Position numbers and translations under genes: made by a program
In this document: positions 171-54,496 of the stretch, one piece after another
How positions within the stretch are numbered: position 1 is the stretch's first letter
Layout: every line of letters starts with the position of its first letter
From: a virus
Lineage: Duplodnaviria > Heunggongvirae > Uroviricota > Caudoviricetes
DNA: 55,890 bases
Direction: 5' to 3' (one strand)
Virus record (IMG/VR): IMGVR_UViG_3300044719_000150
The notes under the pieces: generated by a model
What the model was told of the DNA's origin: nothing
Seen by the model: the letters and a program-made list of their open reading frames with translations, nothing else
Databases searched by the model: none

Positions 171-269
171 CCCAGGCGCAACCTACGTGGTCTTACGAGG
201 GGTTCATGGCCTGGGAAATCTAAGTGCGCGGCGGTTGAGGAGTAGGTTTCGTGCGCCTTTTGGCCGCGC
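171..269 (-). ncRNA. Two tigRNA-like guide units (226-269 and 171-215)
   Basis: Minus strand: GCGCGG-CCA-aaaggcgca-CG-aaac-CTA-ctcctcaac-CG-CCGCGC and CCCAGG-CCA-tgaacccct-CG-taaga-CCA-cgtaggttg-CG-CCTGGG; both closed by perfect 6-bp stems. Confidence 0.85.
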
Positions 270-274
270 GGGGA

Positions 275-286
275 CTAACGTATCAC
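275..286 (-). promoter_or_regulatory. Recurrent motif GTGATACGTTAG (extended -10-like, TGnTACGTT) upstream of guide units
   Basis: Exact motif, 5 nt upstream of unit 226-269; overlaps the TGA stop of 283-588. Confidence 0.7.
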
Positions 287-588
287 GGCTCCGGTTCGTC
301 GTCCAGCTCGGGTCGGATCTCACGCCAGAGAGTTCTGCGGGCATGACCCTTAGCCATGCCCATCAGCCCCTCCAAGAGCTGCTGCTGGAACATCAGGTTC
401 TCACGCAGCGCGGGCAGCACCACGGGGATCTTCTCCCACGGCACCATGAACGAGGTGGGCATGTCCTCGGGCAGCTCGGCGGGGTCTCCCTCGTATACGG
501 CCTCGTAGTCGTTTCCTTCGGTGCGCGCCTGCTCCAGCTCGCGAATGACGCGCTTGTAGTGTTCGATCGAGTCCACAAGGTCACCCAT
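283..588 (-). CDS. Hypothetical protein
   Basis: 101-aa ORF overlapping the end of the Thg1 gene, same strand. Confidence 0.7.
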   Translation of the reverse strand: MGDLVDSIEHYKRVIRELEQARTEGNDYEAVYEGDPAELPEDMPTSFMVPWEKIPVVLPALRENLMFQQQLLEGLMGMAKGHARRTLWREIRPELDDEPEP

Positions 589-1408
589 GGAACAGCTCCG
601 GCCGCCCCAGGTCCCGCAGAACCTCCGGCGGGAAGTACTCCCGCACCGCCGCGTCCACCGTGGACTGTGACGGACCGCCGAATGAGGGCATCTCCGGAAT
701 ACGCCCCACCAGCCAGTTGTCCGGCTGCGCCTCGAACAGCGGCGCGGCGTCGAAGCGCCAGTAGGAGCCGGTGTCCGTGTCCGTGCGGGTGCAGACCTGT
801 CCGTAGCGGGTCGAGCGCGGGTAGTCCTCGAAGATCACCTGGCGGTCGCGCGCCAGCATCGTGATCATCTGCTCGCGGTTCTTGCCGTACAACTCAGAGA
901 CCGAGAAGTGCGCCTGCGCCGCCATCGACACCGCGTTGCGGTACGCGTCGCGCTGGCGCCACACGAAGTAGTTCGCCACCTCCACCGGGTTCGGCAGGGC
1001 GAACACCCGCGCGTCGAACGCCAGGTAGTGCGGCAGGTCATGCAGCTGGCGCTGAATCGCCAGGGACACCGAGGCGATACCGGCGCTTACCGAGGCGATC
1101 TTCTGTGTCCGGCCACCGAACCACGGCTGCTGCGTGAACTCCTCATAGGCGCACACCAACACGCTGATCTCATCGGACTGCTGATAGGCCAGCACCGCAC
1201 CCTGCACCTCGCGGCACAGATCCTGCATCACGTGGCCCATCATCTCCACGAAGCGCATGTCGTACGGTTTGTCCGCCGTCCGCAGCAGGGAGTGCGCCGC
1301 GCGCACGTCCACCCGGACCACGAAGGGCAGGTAGCGCGTCAGGGTGCTGCCGGTCGCGGCCTCGTACGCCTTCATCCGGTCGCCGAGCGCGGTCCCGTCA
1401 CCAGCCAT
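581..1408 (-). CDS. thg1: tRNA-His guanylyltransferase / Thg1-like 3'-5' polymerase
   Basis: DRMKAYE, VVRVD-x-R-x-x-H, YQQSDEISV, FGGRTQKIAS, AFDARVF, NYFVWRQRDAYRNAVS match the Thg1 family; start reassigned to ATG 1408. Confidence 0.9.
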   Translation of the reverse strand: MAGDGTALGDRMKAYEAATGSTLTRYLPFVVRVDVRAAHSLLRTADKPYDMRFVEMMGHVMQDLCREVQGAVLAYQQSDEISVLVCAYEEFTQQPWFGGRTQKIASVSAGIASVSLAIQRQLHDLPHYLAFDARVFALPNPVEVANYFVWRQRDAYRNAVSMAAQAHFSVSELYGKNREQMITMLARDRQVIFEDYPRSTRYGQVCTRTDTDTGSYWRFDAAPLFEAQPDNWLVGRIPEMPSFGGPSQSTVDAAVREYFPPEVLRDLGRPELFHG

Positions 1409-2234
1409 AGGGCAGCACATCCTTCGAACCGGCCATGGTCCGCACGCGCGGCTTCTCACCCCGGTAGCGGATGAAGATCGAACCCGCCATGGTATTCGCG
1501 TCGATAACGCCGTCCCCATCCCTGATGGTGATGCCGCCAGACATCGTCTTGGCGATGACACCGCCGAAGGCCTGCTGGATCTTGATGCTGCCAGCCATGG
1601 TGTTCGCGTAGAGAGTCCCCAAGGACCGCTCCACATGTATCGATCCGGATTCGGTCACGGCACGGACAGACGCGGCGGTGGCGATACGCACGGAGCCGCT
1701 CACGATGTTGGCGGTCACATGCCCGAGGTCTCCCTGAGTTTCGAGGTAGCCCGACGAGCAGTCGAACTTCACTTCCGAGCCGCTTGGCACCAGTGCCGAG
1801 ATGACGTACTTGGGGGCGCGCACGCCGTTCACGGTGGTGACACCGTTCGTGGTCTGGATGCTGACACCGCCGCGACTGGTATAGTTGCCGTCCTCCCGCA
1901 GCCGCAGGATGAGGCGGTCGCCGTCCTGTCGCAACTCCATGGCTTCGAAAGCCGGGTGTCGCGCGTCCAGCGGCTCGCCTTCGATCGTGACGCGCACCGA
2001 GGCGCGGGGCACATCGTCGCCGACCACCACAAGCCCCGTCGCAAGCGTCGAGACGTCGAGCTTGATCGGGCCGGGGAAGTTGGCGGTCAGGACGCGCTCG
2101 TGGGACGACCCGCGCGGCGGCGCGTCTTCCGGCTCGGAGGGCCGGGCATCCTCGGGCTCCTGATGAGGACGAGCATCCTGTGGGCCGAGCGCCGCGCCGA
2201 TGAGCCCTTCGACGAGCTTCAGGAAATCGGTCAA
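1398..2234 (-). CDS. DUF4097-like beta-strand repeat protein
   Basis: Repeated T(M/E)(A/S)G(S/G)I motifs in the C-terminal half; TTG start with AAGGGGG RBS. Confidence 0.7.
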   Translation of the reverse strand: MTDFLKLVEGLIGAALGPQDARPHQEPEDARPSEPEDAPPRGSSHERVLTANFPGPIKLDVSTLATGLVVVGDDVPRASVRVTIEGEPLDARHPAFEAMELRQDGDRLILRLREDGNYTSRGGVSIQTTNGVTTVNGVRAPKYVISALVPSGSEVKFDCSSGYLETQGDLGHVTANIVSGSVRIATAASVRAVTESGSIHVERSLGTLYANTMAGSIKIQQAFGGVIAKTMSGGITIRDGDGVIDANTMAGSIFIRYRGEKPRVRTMAGSKDVLPYGW

Positions 2235-2255
2235 GTTAGCCCCCTTCTCGTTGGC

Positions 2256-2299
2256 GCACGGCGGACATGATCTGGCTTTCGACTTCTTTTTGGCCGCGC
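2256..2299 (-). ncRNA. tigRNA-like guide unit
   Basis: GCGCGG-CCA-aaaagaagt-CG-aaag-CCA-gatcatgtc-CG-CCGTGC; 6-bp stem with one G-U. Confidence 0.85.
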
Positions 2300-2306
2300 T
2301 GCGGGA

Positions 2307-2318
2307 CTAACGTAGCAC
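2307..2318 (-). promoter_or_regulatory. Recurrent motif GTGCTACGTTAG
   Basis: One mismatch to consensus; 7 nt upstream of unit 2256-2299. Confidence 0.7.
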
Positions 2319-53382: not shown

Positions 53383-53384
53383 CC

Positions 53385-53393
53385 TGCTACCAT
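53385..53393 (+). promoter_or_regulatory. Extended -10-like TGCTACCAT upstream of a guide unit
   Basis: TGnTAnnnT, 9 nt before unit 53403. Confidence 0.5.
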
Positions 53394-53402
53394 AGGACTC
53401 CT

Positions 53403-53449
53403 CGCACGGCCAACACCACATCGCAAGCCCAGACTCGGACCGCCGTGCG
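53403..53449 (+). ncRNA. tigRNA-like guide unit
   Basis: CGCACGG-CCA-acaccacat-CG-caagc-CCA-gactcggac-CG-CCGTGCG. Confidence 0.88.
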
Positions 53450-53468
53450 CCCATATTCGGGAGTTTCT

Positions 53469-53849
53469 TTGGACGCCTGGATGCATGCCAAGTCCGCCGC
53501 CCGCAAGTGGGGTGGGGATGCGGAGCAGTACTACGACCTGGAGCGTTTTATCGACTGCTCGAAGGAGGGGAGCGTAGCCGATGTGCGTCACCGGGCGTTG
53601 CTGCACCACAGCGAGGGGATCGGCATCTGCATCGAACGCTTCGGGCCGACGCTGACGATCGAACGCGTCCACGGTGTGCTCCAGGTGCCGGTGCGGCAGA
53701 TCGCGGAGCGGCACATCCTGGAGGACATCGGCTGGATCCCCAGCCACAAGGACTGGCTTGGCGACACCCCCATCAAGGGGTGGATGTCCGGGTCGCAACG
53801 CAGAGAACTTCCCTTGTCCCACATTCTGGCGGGAGAGCAGGCGGCATGA
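53469..53849 (+). CDS. DUF6915-like protein
   Basis: HAKSAARKWGG...RHRALLHHSEG...VPVRQIAERHILEDIGWIPS; TTG start after GGGAG. Confidence 0.75.
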   Translation: MDAWMHAKSAARKWGGDAEQYYDLERFIDCSKEGSVADVRHRALLHHSEGIGICIERFGPTLTIERVHGVLQVPVRQIAERHILEDIGWIPSHKDWLGDTPIKGWMSGSQRRELPLSHILAGEQAA

Positions 53850-54430
53850 CCGACACGCAGGAGCGCAACTTCCTCGGCATCCCCATCTCGGGCGAGATCC
53901 ACTCACACCGAGCGGGCAAGGAGCAGCGCACCAAGGAGGAGTTCGCGGAGATCCTCAAGCCGGTGCTCGACGATCCCACGATCATCGACTTCGGCTGGCG
54001 CCAGTACACCCCGTACTTCAACGACGGCGACACGTGCGTGTTCGGCGCCCACGGCTTGTGGGTGCGCGCGGAGAAGATCGAGGCACCGAAGCCTCCGGAG
54101 CCCGAAGAGGAGCGGTGCCCCGACTGCGACGAGCTGGACTCGCGCTGCACGTGCGACGAGGGCGAAGAGTTCGACTTCGACTACGGCAGCAAGCACAACC
54201 TCGGCAAGGTCACGCACGACGGATGGGGCACCCTGCCGGATGGCTCACGCGGGCCCCTGAACGAGCGGTATGAGGGTCCTGACGAGGAGCGCTACCGCCG
54301 CGTCGAGAAGCTCGCCAGGGCGATCGAGGGCGGCTCGTTCGACCACGCGCTGCTGGAGCTGTTCGGCGACCACGCCACCATCCACGTGCGCAAGACGGGC
54401 ATCACCGTGGAGGAATACTCGCACGACTAA
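53846..54430 (+). CDS. Hypothetical protein coupled to the DUF6915-like gene
   Basis: WRQYTPYFNDGDTCVFG...LFGDHATI...EEYSHD. Confidence 0.75.
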   Translation: MTDTQERNFLGIPISGEIHSHRAGKEQRTKEEFAEILKPVLDDPTIIDFGWRQYTPYFNDGDTCVFGAHGLWVRAEKIEAPKPPEPEEERCPDCDELDSRCTCDEGEEFDFDYGSKHNLGKVTHDGWGTLPDGSRGPLNERYEGPDEERYRRVEKLARAIEGGSFDHALLELFGDHATIHVRKTGITVEEYSHD

Positions 54431-54436
54431 GGGCTG

Positions 54437-54496
54437 CCCTGGGTGATCATTCGATCGAACGAAAGCCCATACCTCAGGCGGTCGCCCAGGGTTTTT
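54437..54496 (+). ncRNA. tigRNA-like unit with an 11-bp stem and TTTTT tail (probable terminator as well)
   Basis: CCCTGGGTGAT-CAT-tcgatcgaa-CG-aaagc-CCA-tacctcagg-CG-GTCGCCCAGGG-TTTTT. Confidence 0.7.

What the first reader, a model, noticed from the sequence alone, without database searches (positions are those of the whole stretch)
171..54496. Genome-wide dispersed TIGR-Tas-like system: one nuclease-less TasA gene and about 28 guide units at 17 loci
Seen in sequence: stem-CCA-N9-CG-N4/5-CCA-N9-CG-stem units at 171-269 (2), 2256-2299, 3260-3305, 3601-3675 (2), 4374-4422, 5693-5734, 17752-17850 (2), 28246-28291, 35194-35352 (4), 36977-37084 (3), 43739-43893 (3), 44654-44750 (2), 47920-47965, 49667-49713, 51717-51763, 53403-53449 and 54437-54491. 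All are intergenic or touch only a stop codon. Spacers are unique, and the stems differ but stay complementary. The only Nop/IS110-like gene (36068-36955) lacks a nuclease domain. Established knowledge (Faure et al., Science 2025, recalled): TIGR arrays yield short box C/D-like dual-spacer guides with 9-nt spacers bound by Nop-domain Tas proteins, and TasA has no nuclease. Inference: this phage scatters single guides and mini-arrays over the whole genome, many with their own promoter, rather than keeping them beside tas. I am not aware of this layout being described.
Basis: partly seen in the sequence, partly recalled or inferred. Interest (0 to 1): 0.96.

Follow-up and report, generated by a model that had tools for sequence, protein, structure and literature searches.

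The report
Phage TIGR-TasA system with scattered guides
A 120-kb soil phage carries one nuclease-free TasA protein of the recently described TIGR-Tas RNA-guided family, but its hairpin guide-RNA genes are spread through gaps between genes across the genome, many behind their own promoter, instead of sitting in one array beside the protein gene.

Summary
The window has 24 well-formed units (stem, CCA, 9 nt, CG, 4-5 nt, CCA, 9 nt, CG, stem) and 4 degenerate ones, at 17 intergenic loci. A pattern-plus-stem scan finds 19, against 0.46 in shuffles. The stems covary strongly and the spacers are all different.

The 295-aa protein (36068-36955, minus strand) folds like solved TasR and TasH. It has a coiled coil and a Nop domain but no nuclease domain, and it is the only such gene in the genome.

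The same RNA model finds this unit type packed against or inside tas in 17 actinobacterial prophages and 4 cultured phages. The scattered layout is therefore the exception, and two related metagenomic phages share it. Nine or ten of the 17 loci start 1-11 nt after an extended -10 promoter element. Three are antisense cassettes between rightward genes, two of them in the virion operon.

I rebuilt the whole 119,759-bp genome. It holds about 57 units, and roughly 24 lie flush against tRNA genes.

No guide matches the phage's own DNA, so targets remain unknown. Expression could not be tested.

Verdict: a genuine stem-loop TIGR-TasA system with a new layout. I did not find this layout in the TIGR-Tas papers I read. 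This scan has noted it before in other phages.

The parts
36068..36955 (-). tasA: 295-aa Tas protein with a coiled coil and a Nop domain, and no nuclease domain
   Evidence: phmmer against PDB: TasR 9mty E=1e-7, TasH E=0.1. AF2 model pLDDT 89. Foldseek top hits are TasR 9mty and TasH 9vzx/9w03/21kl, then IS621. PHROG 4285, E=3e-90. No Pfam hit. It is the only copy in the genome.
36974..37086 (-). Compact three-unit array between the stop of the upstream gene and the tasA ribosome-binding site. It has no promoter element of its own.
   Evidence: (33.8 and 14.5 bits). The middle unit has a CA box D and minimal edges.
35193..35353 (-). Four-unit array. Neighbouring units share edges that are alternately complementary. 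An extended -10 element (TGATACGTT) ends 1 nt upstream.
168..270 (-). Two units. TGATACGTT ends 6 nt upstream, and a ribosome-binding site and start codon follow.
   Evidence: (35.0 and 41.4 bits).
2255..2300 (-). One unit in the 5' leader of gene 1398-2234. TGCTACGTT ends 8 nt upstream.
   Evidence: (37.9 bits).
3259..3306 (-). One unit, antisense between two rightward genes. TGCTACTTT ends 6 nt upstream.
   Evidence: (28.3 bits).
3599..3678 (-). Two units that share an edge, directly after the stop of gene 3675-4301. No promoter element.
   Evidence: (34.0 bits).
4374..4422 (-). One unit 6 nt after the stop of gene 4429-5523. Box C is CTC and spacer A is 10 nt.
   Evidence: (20.1 bits).
5691..5736 (-). 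One unit in a divergent promoter region. TGATACGTT ends 4 nt upstream. Box D is CA.
   Evidence: (21.8 bits).
17751..17853 (-). Promoter plus two units (the second degenerate), antisense between rightward virion genes.
   Evidence: (47.5 and 13.7 bits).
28246..28291 (-). Promoter plus one unit, antisense between rightward tail genes. The cassette is conserved at the same place in two related phages.
   Evidence: (37.7 bits).
43738..43894 (+). Three units with three different complementary stems. The shared promoter motif lies directly upstream in the other orientation, where TAACGT can serve as the -10.
   Evidence: (37.1-37.7 bits).
44653..44751 (+). Two units 10 nt after the stop of gene 43935-44642.
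   Evidence: (19.9 and 33.5 bits).
47919..47966 (-). One unit between leftward genes.
   Evidence: (24.2 bits).
49667..49713 (-). One unit. TGCTACGTT ends 11 nt upstream, and a ribosome-binding site and start codon follow.
   Evidence: (32.0 bits; not used to build the model).
51717..51763 (+). One unit between rightward genes. The promoter motif lies upstream in the other orientation.
   Evidence: (44.7 bits).
53403..53449 (+). One unit. TGCTACCAT ends 9 nt upstream.
   Evidence: (40.1 bits).
54437..54491 (+). Degenerate unit. Only the second half is intact, and its stem is followed by a T run, so it resembles an intrinsic terminator.
   Evidence: 13.9 bits.
35659..36075 (-). DUF6197 gene that overlaps the end of tasA by 8 nt. 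It may be an operon partner in this lineage only.
   Evidence: Pfam PF19698, E=1.5e-20. Present at the same place in L003 and L004, but not next to tas in the other fetched relatives.

Best explanation
This is a stem-loop TIGR-TasA system whose guide genes are spread over the phage genome.

Guide anatomy (shown from sequence). Each unit should give an RNA of about 45 nt. A variable 6-9 bp terminal stem closes a loop that holds two 9-nt spacers. Each spacer sits between a CCA (box C) and a CG (box D). The two spacers are 9-10 nt apart.

Protein (by homology with solved TasR, TasH and PlTasA complexes). A TasA dimer, joined through its coiled coil, should bind this pseudo-symmetric RNA. It would use the two spacers to pair with the two strands of an 18-bp DNA site. 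Lacking a nuclease, it would block transcription or another DNA transaction rather than cut.

Supply of guides (inferred from layout). The RNAs appear to be made in three ways.
- From a transcription start set by an extended -10 element, TGnTAnnnT, that ends 1-11 nt before the first stem.
- As the tail of an upstream, co-oriented gene's transcript.
- Outside the window, between tRNAs, where RNase P and the tRNA 3'-end enzymes would release them.

Targets (not known). They are not in the phage itself. Host or rival-element DNA is the likely target.
For: Protein. The best sequence and fold matches are TIGR-TasR 9mty (Foldseek E=5e-8, TM 0.54-0.56) and TasH (TM up to 0.75). IS621 and Nop5 rank behind them. 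The model is confident: pLDDT 89, pTM 0.83. It starts directly with coiled-coil helices at residues 18-48 and 68-97.

Dimer. The homodimer model supports pairing through residues 15-94. The score is 0.72 and the best control is 0.07. That mark was reached by 21 of 30 proteins solved as pairs of one chain and by 0 of 23 solved as single chains. The three runs agree in at least 93% of contacts, and the partner pLDDT is at least 80. Similar Tas dimers have been solved, so this pass may reflect likeness only.

Units. The invariant positions are G-CCA, CG, CCA and CG-C. Units are about 40-fold more frequent than in shuffles. Compensatory stem changes exceed all 500 shuffles and all slid controls. 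The first C of each CCA can pair with the G of the partner CG, as in the solved TasR guide. Ten units fold with the terminal stem.

Link between unit type and protein clade. The model built here finds 83 of 84 hits on the tas strand, within about 1 kb upstream of tas or inside it, in 17 prophage loci. It finds only tas-proximal hits in the whole genomes of phages Omega, Rich, BENtherdunthat and Bethlehem.

Promoters. The motif occurs 15 times against 3.9 expected, and it ends 1-11 nt before the units at 9-10 of 17 loci.

Conservation. The layout, including the antisense tail-operon cassette with its promoter, recurs in L003 and L004, whose TasA is 72-75% identical.

Published function of relatives. 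Stem-loop TasA systems are processed into single-hairpin RNAs (PMC12045711). They bind DNA and repress transcription (bioRxiv 10.64898/2026.09.09.750476; PlTasA structure in bioRxiv 10.64898/2026.08.11.744272).
Against: No target was found. The best dual-spacer matches in the whole 119.8-kb genome are 13-16 of 18, the same as for mismatched spacer pairs. The same holds for 348 kb of other fetched DNA.

The CUU motif said to mark processing sites in other stem-loop systems is not enriched: 4 and 3 of 25 units, against an 11.5% background.

G-U against A-C counts in the stems (7 against 10) do not confirm the transcribed strand. The strand assignment rests on the box order, the promoters, and the orientation of flanking genes and tRNAs.

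Box D is CG rather than the UG of the characterised TasR guides.

Spacer GC is 51% in a 65% GC genome. That would also fit sequence that is merely kept unpaired.
Confidence: 0.8

Rival explanations
1. The units act in cis rather than as trans-acting DNA guides. They would be TasA-binding or simply structured elements at the 5' ends and ends of transcripts, setting mRNA stability, processing or translation. The 9-nt segments would be spacers only in the geometric sense.
For: Most units lie in 5' leaders just before a ribosome-binding site and start codon, or right after stop codons. No targets were found. Spacer GC is low at 51%. Spacers differ completely between related phages at conserved positions, as free drift would also predict.
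Against: The same unit type forms classical arrays beside tas in 21 relatives. Homologous stem-loop TasA systems were shown to guide DNA binding (papers cited above). The three antisense cassettes and the roughly 24 units between tRNAs have no downstream mRNA to regulate. The exact 9-nt spacer length and the box positions match the DNA-pairing geometry.
Confidence: 0.12
2. The units are ordinary intergenic hairpins (terminators or REP-like elements), or miniature mobile elements, with no link to the Nop protein.
For: They are GC-rich inverted repeats in intergenic gaps. One of them (54437-54491) is followed by a T run.
Against: The loops are about 31 nt long and carry invariant boxes at fixed spacing. 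Only one unit has a T run. Stems vary with compensation instead of being conserved terminal repeats. The unit model is tightly linked to tas in independent genomes. Positions are conserved among diverged relatives. No Rfam family matches.
Confidence: 0.03
3. The guides regulate the phage's own genes by binding its promoters and ribosome-binding sites, a self-directed CRISPRi-like circuit. The first reader proposed this in a companion note.
For: TasA relatives repress transcription (bioRxiv 10.64898/2026.09.09.750476). Two spacers contain CCTCC, the complement of a ribosome-binding site.
Against: No dual-spacer match better than chance exists anywhere in the complete genome, in either geometry and with gaps of 0-2. 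By my own rough estimate, not a tool result, two CCTCC-containing spacers among 50 compare with about 0.4 expected, which is not significant.
Confidence: 0.05

Closest known systems
Stem-loop TIGR-TasA systems: PlTasA (Peromyscus leucopus gut contig), BlTasA, MbTasA (Faure et al. 2025, PMC12045711; Xu et al. 2026, bioRxiv 10.64898/2026.09.09.750476; Guan et al. 2026, bioRxiv 10.64898/2026.08.11.744272)
   Same: A nuclease-free Tas protein with a coiled coil and a Nop domain. Hairpin units with two roughly 9-nt spacers, each between box C (CCA) and box D. Variable palindromic stems. About 9 nt between the spacers.
   Different: Published arrays lie upstream of, downstream of, or inside tas, and the searches covered about 5 kb around tas. 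Here only 7 of about 57 units lie within 1 kb of tas. The rest are single units or mini-arrays up to tens of kb away, many with their own promoter, three antisense to flanking genes, and many between tRNAs. Box D is CG. The CUU motif is absent.
Compact arrays of the same TasA clade in cultured actinophages and prophages: Mycobacterium phage Bethlehem gp71 (annotated 'transposase'), Omega gp21, Rich gp50, Gordonia phage BENtherdunthat gp059, and prophages of Streptomyces, Kitasatospora, Actinomadura and others
   Same: TasA is 41-51% identical. The same unit model scores up to 40 bits, on the same strand as tas.
   Different: All their units lie within about 1.6 kb of tas or inside it. None is scattered.
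IS110-family bridge-RNA recombinases (IS621, PDB 8wt9)
   Same: The RNA-binding domain fold is shared (Foldseek E about 1e-3). The guide has two parts.
   Different: There is no DEDD/RuvC-like catalytic domain, because the protein starts with the coiled coil. There is no bridge RNA and there are no element ends. This is not a transposase, despite the database labels.
Dicistronic tRNA-snoRNA genes of plants processed by RNase Z (Kruszka et al. 2003, cited in PMC12045711), and engineered tRNA-guide arrays (the latter recalled from memory)
   Same: A box C/D-like guide RNA is placed flush against tRNAs, so that tRNA-processing enzymes can cut it out. About 24 units outside the window are placed this way.
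   Different: Those are eukaryotic or synthetic. Here the arrangement is natural, in a phage, and serves a TasA protein. Processing has not been shown.

Membership tests
TIGR-Tas (stem-loop type, TasA) | Tas protein with a Nop RNA-binding domain and a coiled-coil dimerisation domain | tested here: met
   phmmer hits TasR 9mty at E=1e-7. Foldseek top 11 hits are all TasR or TasH. Helices at residues 18-48 and 68-97. The dimer model passes at 0.72 against a best control of 0.07, with the caveat that similar complexes have been solved.
TIGR-Tas (stem-loop type, TasA) | TasA subtype: no HNH or RuvC nuclease domain | tested here: met
   The protein is 295 aa. Only 17 residues precede the coiled coil. 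The alignment to TasR starts after its RuvC part. No Pfam domain is found.
TIGR-Tas (stem-loop type, TasA) | Units with two 8-12 nt spacers, each flanked by box C (CCA) and box D (UG in the characterised TasR guides) | tested here: met
   CCA-N9-CG, twice, in 24 units. Box D is CG. Faure et al. state that the boxes can diverge but covary between the two halves, and here both halves carry CG.
TIGR-Tas (stem-loop type, TasA) | Variable but palindromic flanks that form a terminal stem | tested here: met
   90.7% of cells are paired. 30 cells carry compensatory changes against 9.1 in shuffles (0 of 500 reach this). Slid controls give 28-53% paired. Ten units fold with the stem.
TIGR-Tas (stem-loop type, TasA) | About 9 nt between the two spacers | tested here: met
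   CG plus 4-5 nt plus CCA gives 9-10 nt.
TIGR-Tas (stem-loop type, TasA) | Guide units associated with the tas gene | tested here: met
   Three units lie directly upstream of tas and four lie 715 nt downstream of its stop. The unit model co-occurs with tas in 21 independent relatives. Most units of this phage lie far from tas, and that is the point of difference.
TIGR-Tas (stem-loop type, TasA) | CUU motif at the stem base marking processing sites (reported as frequent, not as obligatory) | tested here: not met
   CTT occurs in 4 of 25 5' flanks and 3 of 25 3' flanks, against an 11.5% background.
TIGR-Tas (stem-loop type, TasA) | Units are transcribed, processed to single hairpins and bound by Tas | not testable with these tools
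Only promoter-like elements and tRNA flanks can be inferred.
TIGR-Tas (stem-loop type, TasA) | The two spacers pair with opposite strands of one 18-bp DNA target | tested here: inconclusive
   No such site exists in the phage genome or in 348 kb of other DNA. The host is unknown.
IS110 transposase / bridge RNA | N-terminal DEDD (RuvC-like) catalytic domain plus the C-terminal Tnp domain, within a mobile element | tested here: not met
   No N-terminal catalytic domain is present. IS621 ranks below every Tas structure. The gene is single-copy and syntenic among relatives.
Archaeal/eukaryotic box C/D RNP (Nop5-fibrillarin-L7Ae) | K-turn boxes RUGAUGA and CUGA, with fibrillarin and L7Ae partners | tested here: not met
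   The boxes are CCA and CG. Nop5 (3id5) gives only a weak partial match at E=0.4. No Rfam box C/D family is hit.

The most novel reading that the evidence does not exclude
The scattered layout is functional wiring rather than decay. Guides placed behind individual promoters (including the reverse side of a two-way promoter inside the virion operon), at the ends of mRNAs and between tRNAs would tie each guide's supply to a particular transcription unit and to host tRNA-processing enzymes. One TasA protein would then be loaded with different guide sets as infection proceeds, without any dedicated processing nuclease. If this is general, Tas genes now counted as lacking an array may draw their guides from elsewhere in the genome.
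Probability: 0.35. Interest if true: 0.8.

Novelty: new variant of a known kind. Interest (0 to 1): 0.66.

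Why it matters
TIGR-Tas systems were described in 2025. Their guide biogenesis, natural targets and biological roles are still open. 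The 2026 survey states that sequence alone could not tell whether guides have their own promoters, that the processing nuclease is unknown, and that one Tas branch seems to have no array.

This phage gives concrete, testable answers for one lineage:
- guide hairpins that begin a few bases after a recognisable promoter element;
- guides packed flush between tRNAs, where known enzymes would free them;
- self-contained antisense guide cassettes inside the virion operon, conserved in related phages.

It also shows that searches limited to the neighbourhood of tas can miss most of a system's guides, here about 50 of 57. Relatives with compact arrays exist in cultured mycobacteriophages and Gordonia phages, so a comparison is feasible in the laboratory.

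Tried and rejected
Self-targeting. I searched the window and then the rebuilt whole genome for spacer A plus the reverse complement of spacer B, and for the opposite geometry, with gaps of 0-2. The best matches were 13-16 of 18, identical to the null from mismatched spacer pairs. The same search over 348 kb of relatives' and prophage DNA was also negative.

Wider target scans were not attempted.

Other tests without a useful result:
- Strand test by G-U against A-C pairs: uninformative, 7 against 10.
- CUU motif: not enriched.
- Shared spacers between this phage, L003, L004 and Bethlehem: none.
- Megablast of the tas region against cultured phages: no match. The portal protein finds only distant relatives.
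- Rfam: nothing in the window.
- Pfam: nothing for the protein.

- No whole genome is held for the window, and the metagenome record cannot be searched by handle. I therefore rebuilt the genome from seven overlapping loci, with 0 mismatches.

DUF6197 as a general Tas partner: rejected, because it lies next to tas only in the closest relatives.

Full report
**What is in the sequence.** The unit is a 6-9 bp stem, G-CCA, 9 nt, CG, 4-5 nt, CCA, 9 nt, CG-C, then the complementary stem arm. A pattern-plus-stem scan finds 19 units, against 0.46 on average (maximum 3) in 100 dinucleotide-preserving shuffles. In an alignment of 18 units, only the boxes and the closing G-C pair are invariant.

A covariance model built from that alignment recovers six units it was not built from, at 20-32 bits. 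Hits in coding sequence begin only at 17.8 bits or below.

All loci are intergenic and overlap at most 4 nt of a stop codon, although about 88% of the window is coding. Stem pairs covary: 90.7% of cells are paired, and 30 cells carry changes on both sides against 9.1 in shuffles. None of 500 shuffles reaches this, and sliding the partner columns drops pairing to 28-53%. Ten units fold with the terminal stem as the minimum-energy structure. No Rfam family matches.

**The protein.** ORF 36068-36955 (minus strand, 295 aa) has no Pfam hit. It matches PHROG 4285, labelled 'transposase', at E=3e-90. By sequence it matches the solved TIGR-TasR chain 9mty (E=1e-7) and TasH (E=0.1).

An AlphaFold model from 41 homologues is confident (pLDDT 89.3, pTM 0.83). 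Its 11 best Foldseek matches in the PDB are all TasR or TasH. IS621 and ISCro4 recombinases come next, and Nop5 is far behind. The chain begins with two long helices (18-48, 68-97) and has no room for a RuvC or HNH domain, so it is of the TasA type.

A homodimer prediction supports pairing through residues 15-94. The score is 0.72 and the best control is 0.07. The mark was reached by 21 of 30 proteins solved as pairs of one chain and by 0 of 23 solved as single chains. The runs agree in at least 93% of contacts, and the partner pLDDT is at least 80. Tas dimers have been solved, so this pass may only show likeness. A tblastn search of the rebuilt genome finds no second copy.

**Comparison with the published family.** Faure et al. 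(PMC12045711) define box C as CCA and box D as UG. They describe 9-nt spacers that pair with opposite DNA strands, and a second, stem-loop array type with TasA. Xu et al. (bioRxiv 10.64898/2026.09.09.750476) report that the segment between the spacers is mostly 9 nt, that a CUU motif lies at the stem base, and that TasA acts as an RNA-guided repressor. Guan et al. (bioRxiv 10.64898/2026.08.11.744272) solved PlTasA with its stem-loop guide.

The units here fit that anatomy, with two differences. Box D is CG in both halves. CUU is not enriched. The first C of each CCA can pair with the G of the partner CG: 18 of 18 for the outer pair, and 16 G-C plus 2 G-U for the inner pair. This mirrors the box C/D pairing of the TasR structure.

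**Link between unit type and protein clade, and the normal layout.** TasA homologues of 41-51% identity occur in 91 cultured phage records, 83 of them Mycobacterium phages such as Bethlehem gp71. They also occur in prophages of Streptomyces, Kitasatospora, Actinomadura, Microbacterium, Mycobacterium and others.

In 17 such prophage loci with 6-kb flanks, the model built on this window finds 84 hits. Of these, 83 are on the tas strand, within about 1 kb upstream of tas or inside it. In the whole genomes of phages Omega (111 kb), Rich, BENtherdunthat and Bethlehem, every hit lies within about 1.6 kb of tas. This validates the units as the cognate guides of this TasA clade. It also shows that the compact layout is the norm.

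**The scattered layout.** In the window only 7 units are near tas: three directly upstream and four 715 nt downstream of its stop. The others lie up to 36 kb away.

The window is part of JGI metagenome contig Ga0466962_0000012 (119,921 bp, with a 162-bp terminal overlap). I rebuilt the 119,759-bp circle from seven overlapping loci and the window, with no mismatch. Model hits of 19 bits or more total about 57 genome-wide: 24 in the window and 33 outside it. About 24 of the outside units lie in the tRNA block, on the tRNA strand and 0-4 nt from tRNA ends.

Two metagenomic relatives, L003 and L004, have TasA 72-75% identical and syntenic neighbours. They share the scattered layout, including a unit antisense between tail genes.

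**How the guides are probably made (inference).** An extended -10-like element, TGnTAnnnT (mostly TGATACGTT), ends 1-11 nt before the first stem at 9-10 of the 17 loci. Its core occurs 15 times in the window against 3.9 expected. I confirm its position relative to the units. I also note that at 43738 and 51717 the opposite orientation offers TAACGT at a similar distance.

Three loci (3259, 17751, 28246) face leftward between rightward genes. Each has this element, so each is a self-contained cassette. The 28246 cassette, promoter included, is conserved in L003 and L004, with entirely different spacers.

Seven loci lack the element and follow a co-oriented gene's stop codon by -4 to 10 nt, so they would be cut out of that gene's transcript. 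Most units are followed by a ribosome-binding site and a start codon, which places them in 5' leaders. Between tRNAs, RNase P and the 3'-end enzymes would define both ends of a unit.

**What they target.** From the reported 8-nt 3' overhang and the 'C-5' rule, I derived the target geometry: one strand reads spacer A followed by the reverse complement of spacer B. I also tested the opposite geometry, with gaps of 0-2. Across the whole genome, the best matches for 53 units are 13-16 of 18, the same as for mismatched spacer pairs. The result is the same for 348 kb of other fetched DNA.

The guides therefore do not target the phage's own DNA. Spacers are all different and have 51% GC in a 65% GC genome. 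The host is unknown, and the short spacers make scans of large databases uninformative, as Xu et al. also state.

**Verdict.** This is a genuine stem-loop TIGR-TasA system, and therefore a known kind. Its layout is new relative to the papers I could read: guides are scattered genome-wide, and are promoter-coupled, tRNA-flanked and partly antisense. Those papers searched about 5 kb around tas or 'surrounding tas loci', and literature searches for dispersed tigRNAs found nothing. Earlier notes of this scan describe similar scattering in other phage genomes, so it is a recurring feature of some actinophage lineages. Expression, processing, TasA binding and targets remain untested.

Noticed in passing
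L012:1-8400 (same genome, outside the window): 37 tRNA genes are interleaved with about 24 guide units on the same strand, 0-4 nt from tRNA ends, in runs of up to five units between two tRNAs. tRNA-processing enzymes could free them.
   Followed up: partly
window 35193-35353: In the four-unit array, each 7-nt edge closes one unit and opens the next, and the edges are alternately complementary. Neighbouring terminal stems therefore exclude each other. This is intermediate between the stem-loop and dual-repeat array types.
   Followed up: partly
window 36974-37086: The three units upstream of tasA are joined by minimal edges (box D runs straight into the next box C) and are enclosed by one outer stem with 5 of 6 pairs. 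This resembles a short dual-repeat array inside a hairpin.
   Followed up: no
window 4325-4365, minus strand: A canonical-looking promoter lies downstream of unit 4374-4422 and ahead of gene 3675-4301: TTGACA, a 17-nt spacer, then TAACGT inside the shared GGACTAACGTATC motif. The motif can therefore supply a -10 in this orientation too.
   Followed up: no
window 35659-36075, minus strand: A DUF6197 gene overlaps the tasA stop by 8 nt. It is kept there in L003 and L004, but it is absent next to tas in more distant relatives.
   Followed up: partly
window 581-1408 and 4429-5523 (minus strand); L009:12430-15573: The phage has a tRNA-centred toolkit: a Thg1-like enzyme, two RNA ligase families, a PNKP-like kinase/phosphatase and an RlaP-like protein, alongside its tRNA genes (41 according to an earlier scan note; 37 seen in L012).
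   Followed up: no
window 37686-37982 (minus strand); L003:2232-2570: A phage-encoded Cpn10 (GroES-like) gene lies three genes upstream of tasA in the window. In the syntenic block of the relatives L003 and L004, an Lsr2-like DNA-binding gene lies just upstream of Cpn10.
   Followed up: no
JGI contig Ga0466962_0000012, ends: The first and last 162 nt of the 119,921-bp contig are identical. The assembly therefore closes into a 119,759-bp circle, and the window spans the junction.
   Followed up: yes
L014-L033, inside tas (locus positions 6290-6620): Many prophage relatives carry units inside the tasA coding sequence, as Xu et al. described for BlTasA. The tasA of this window has none.
   Followed up: partly
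PQ559666.1 (Arthrobacter phage Talia1610, 194 kb): It encodes a TasA homologue (43% identity), but the unit model finds no unit anywhere in its genome. Its guides may be of a different type, or missing.
   Followed up: no
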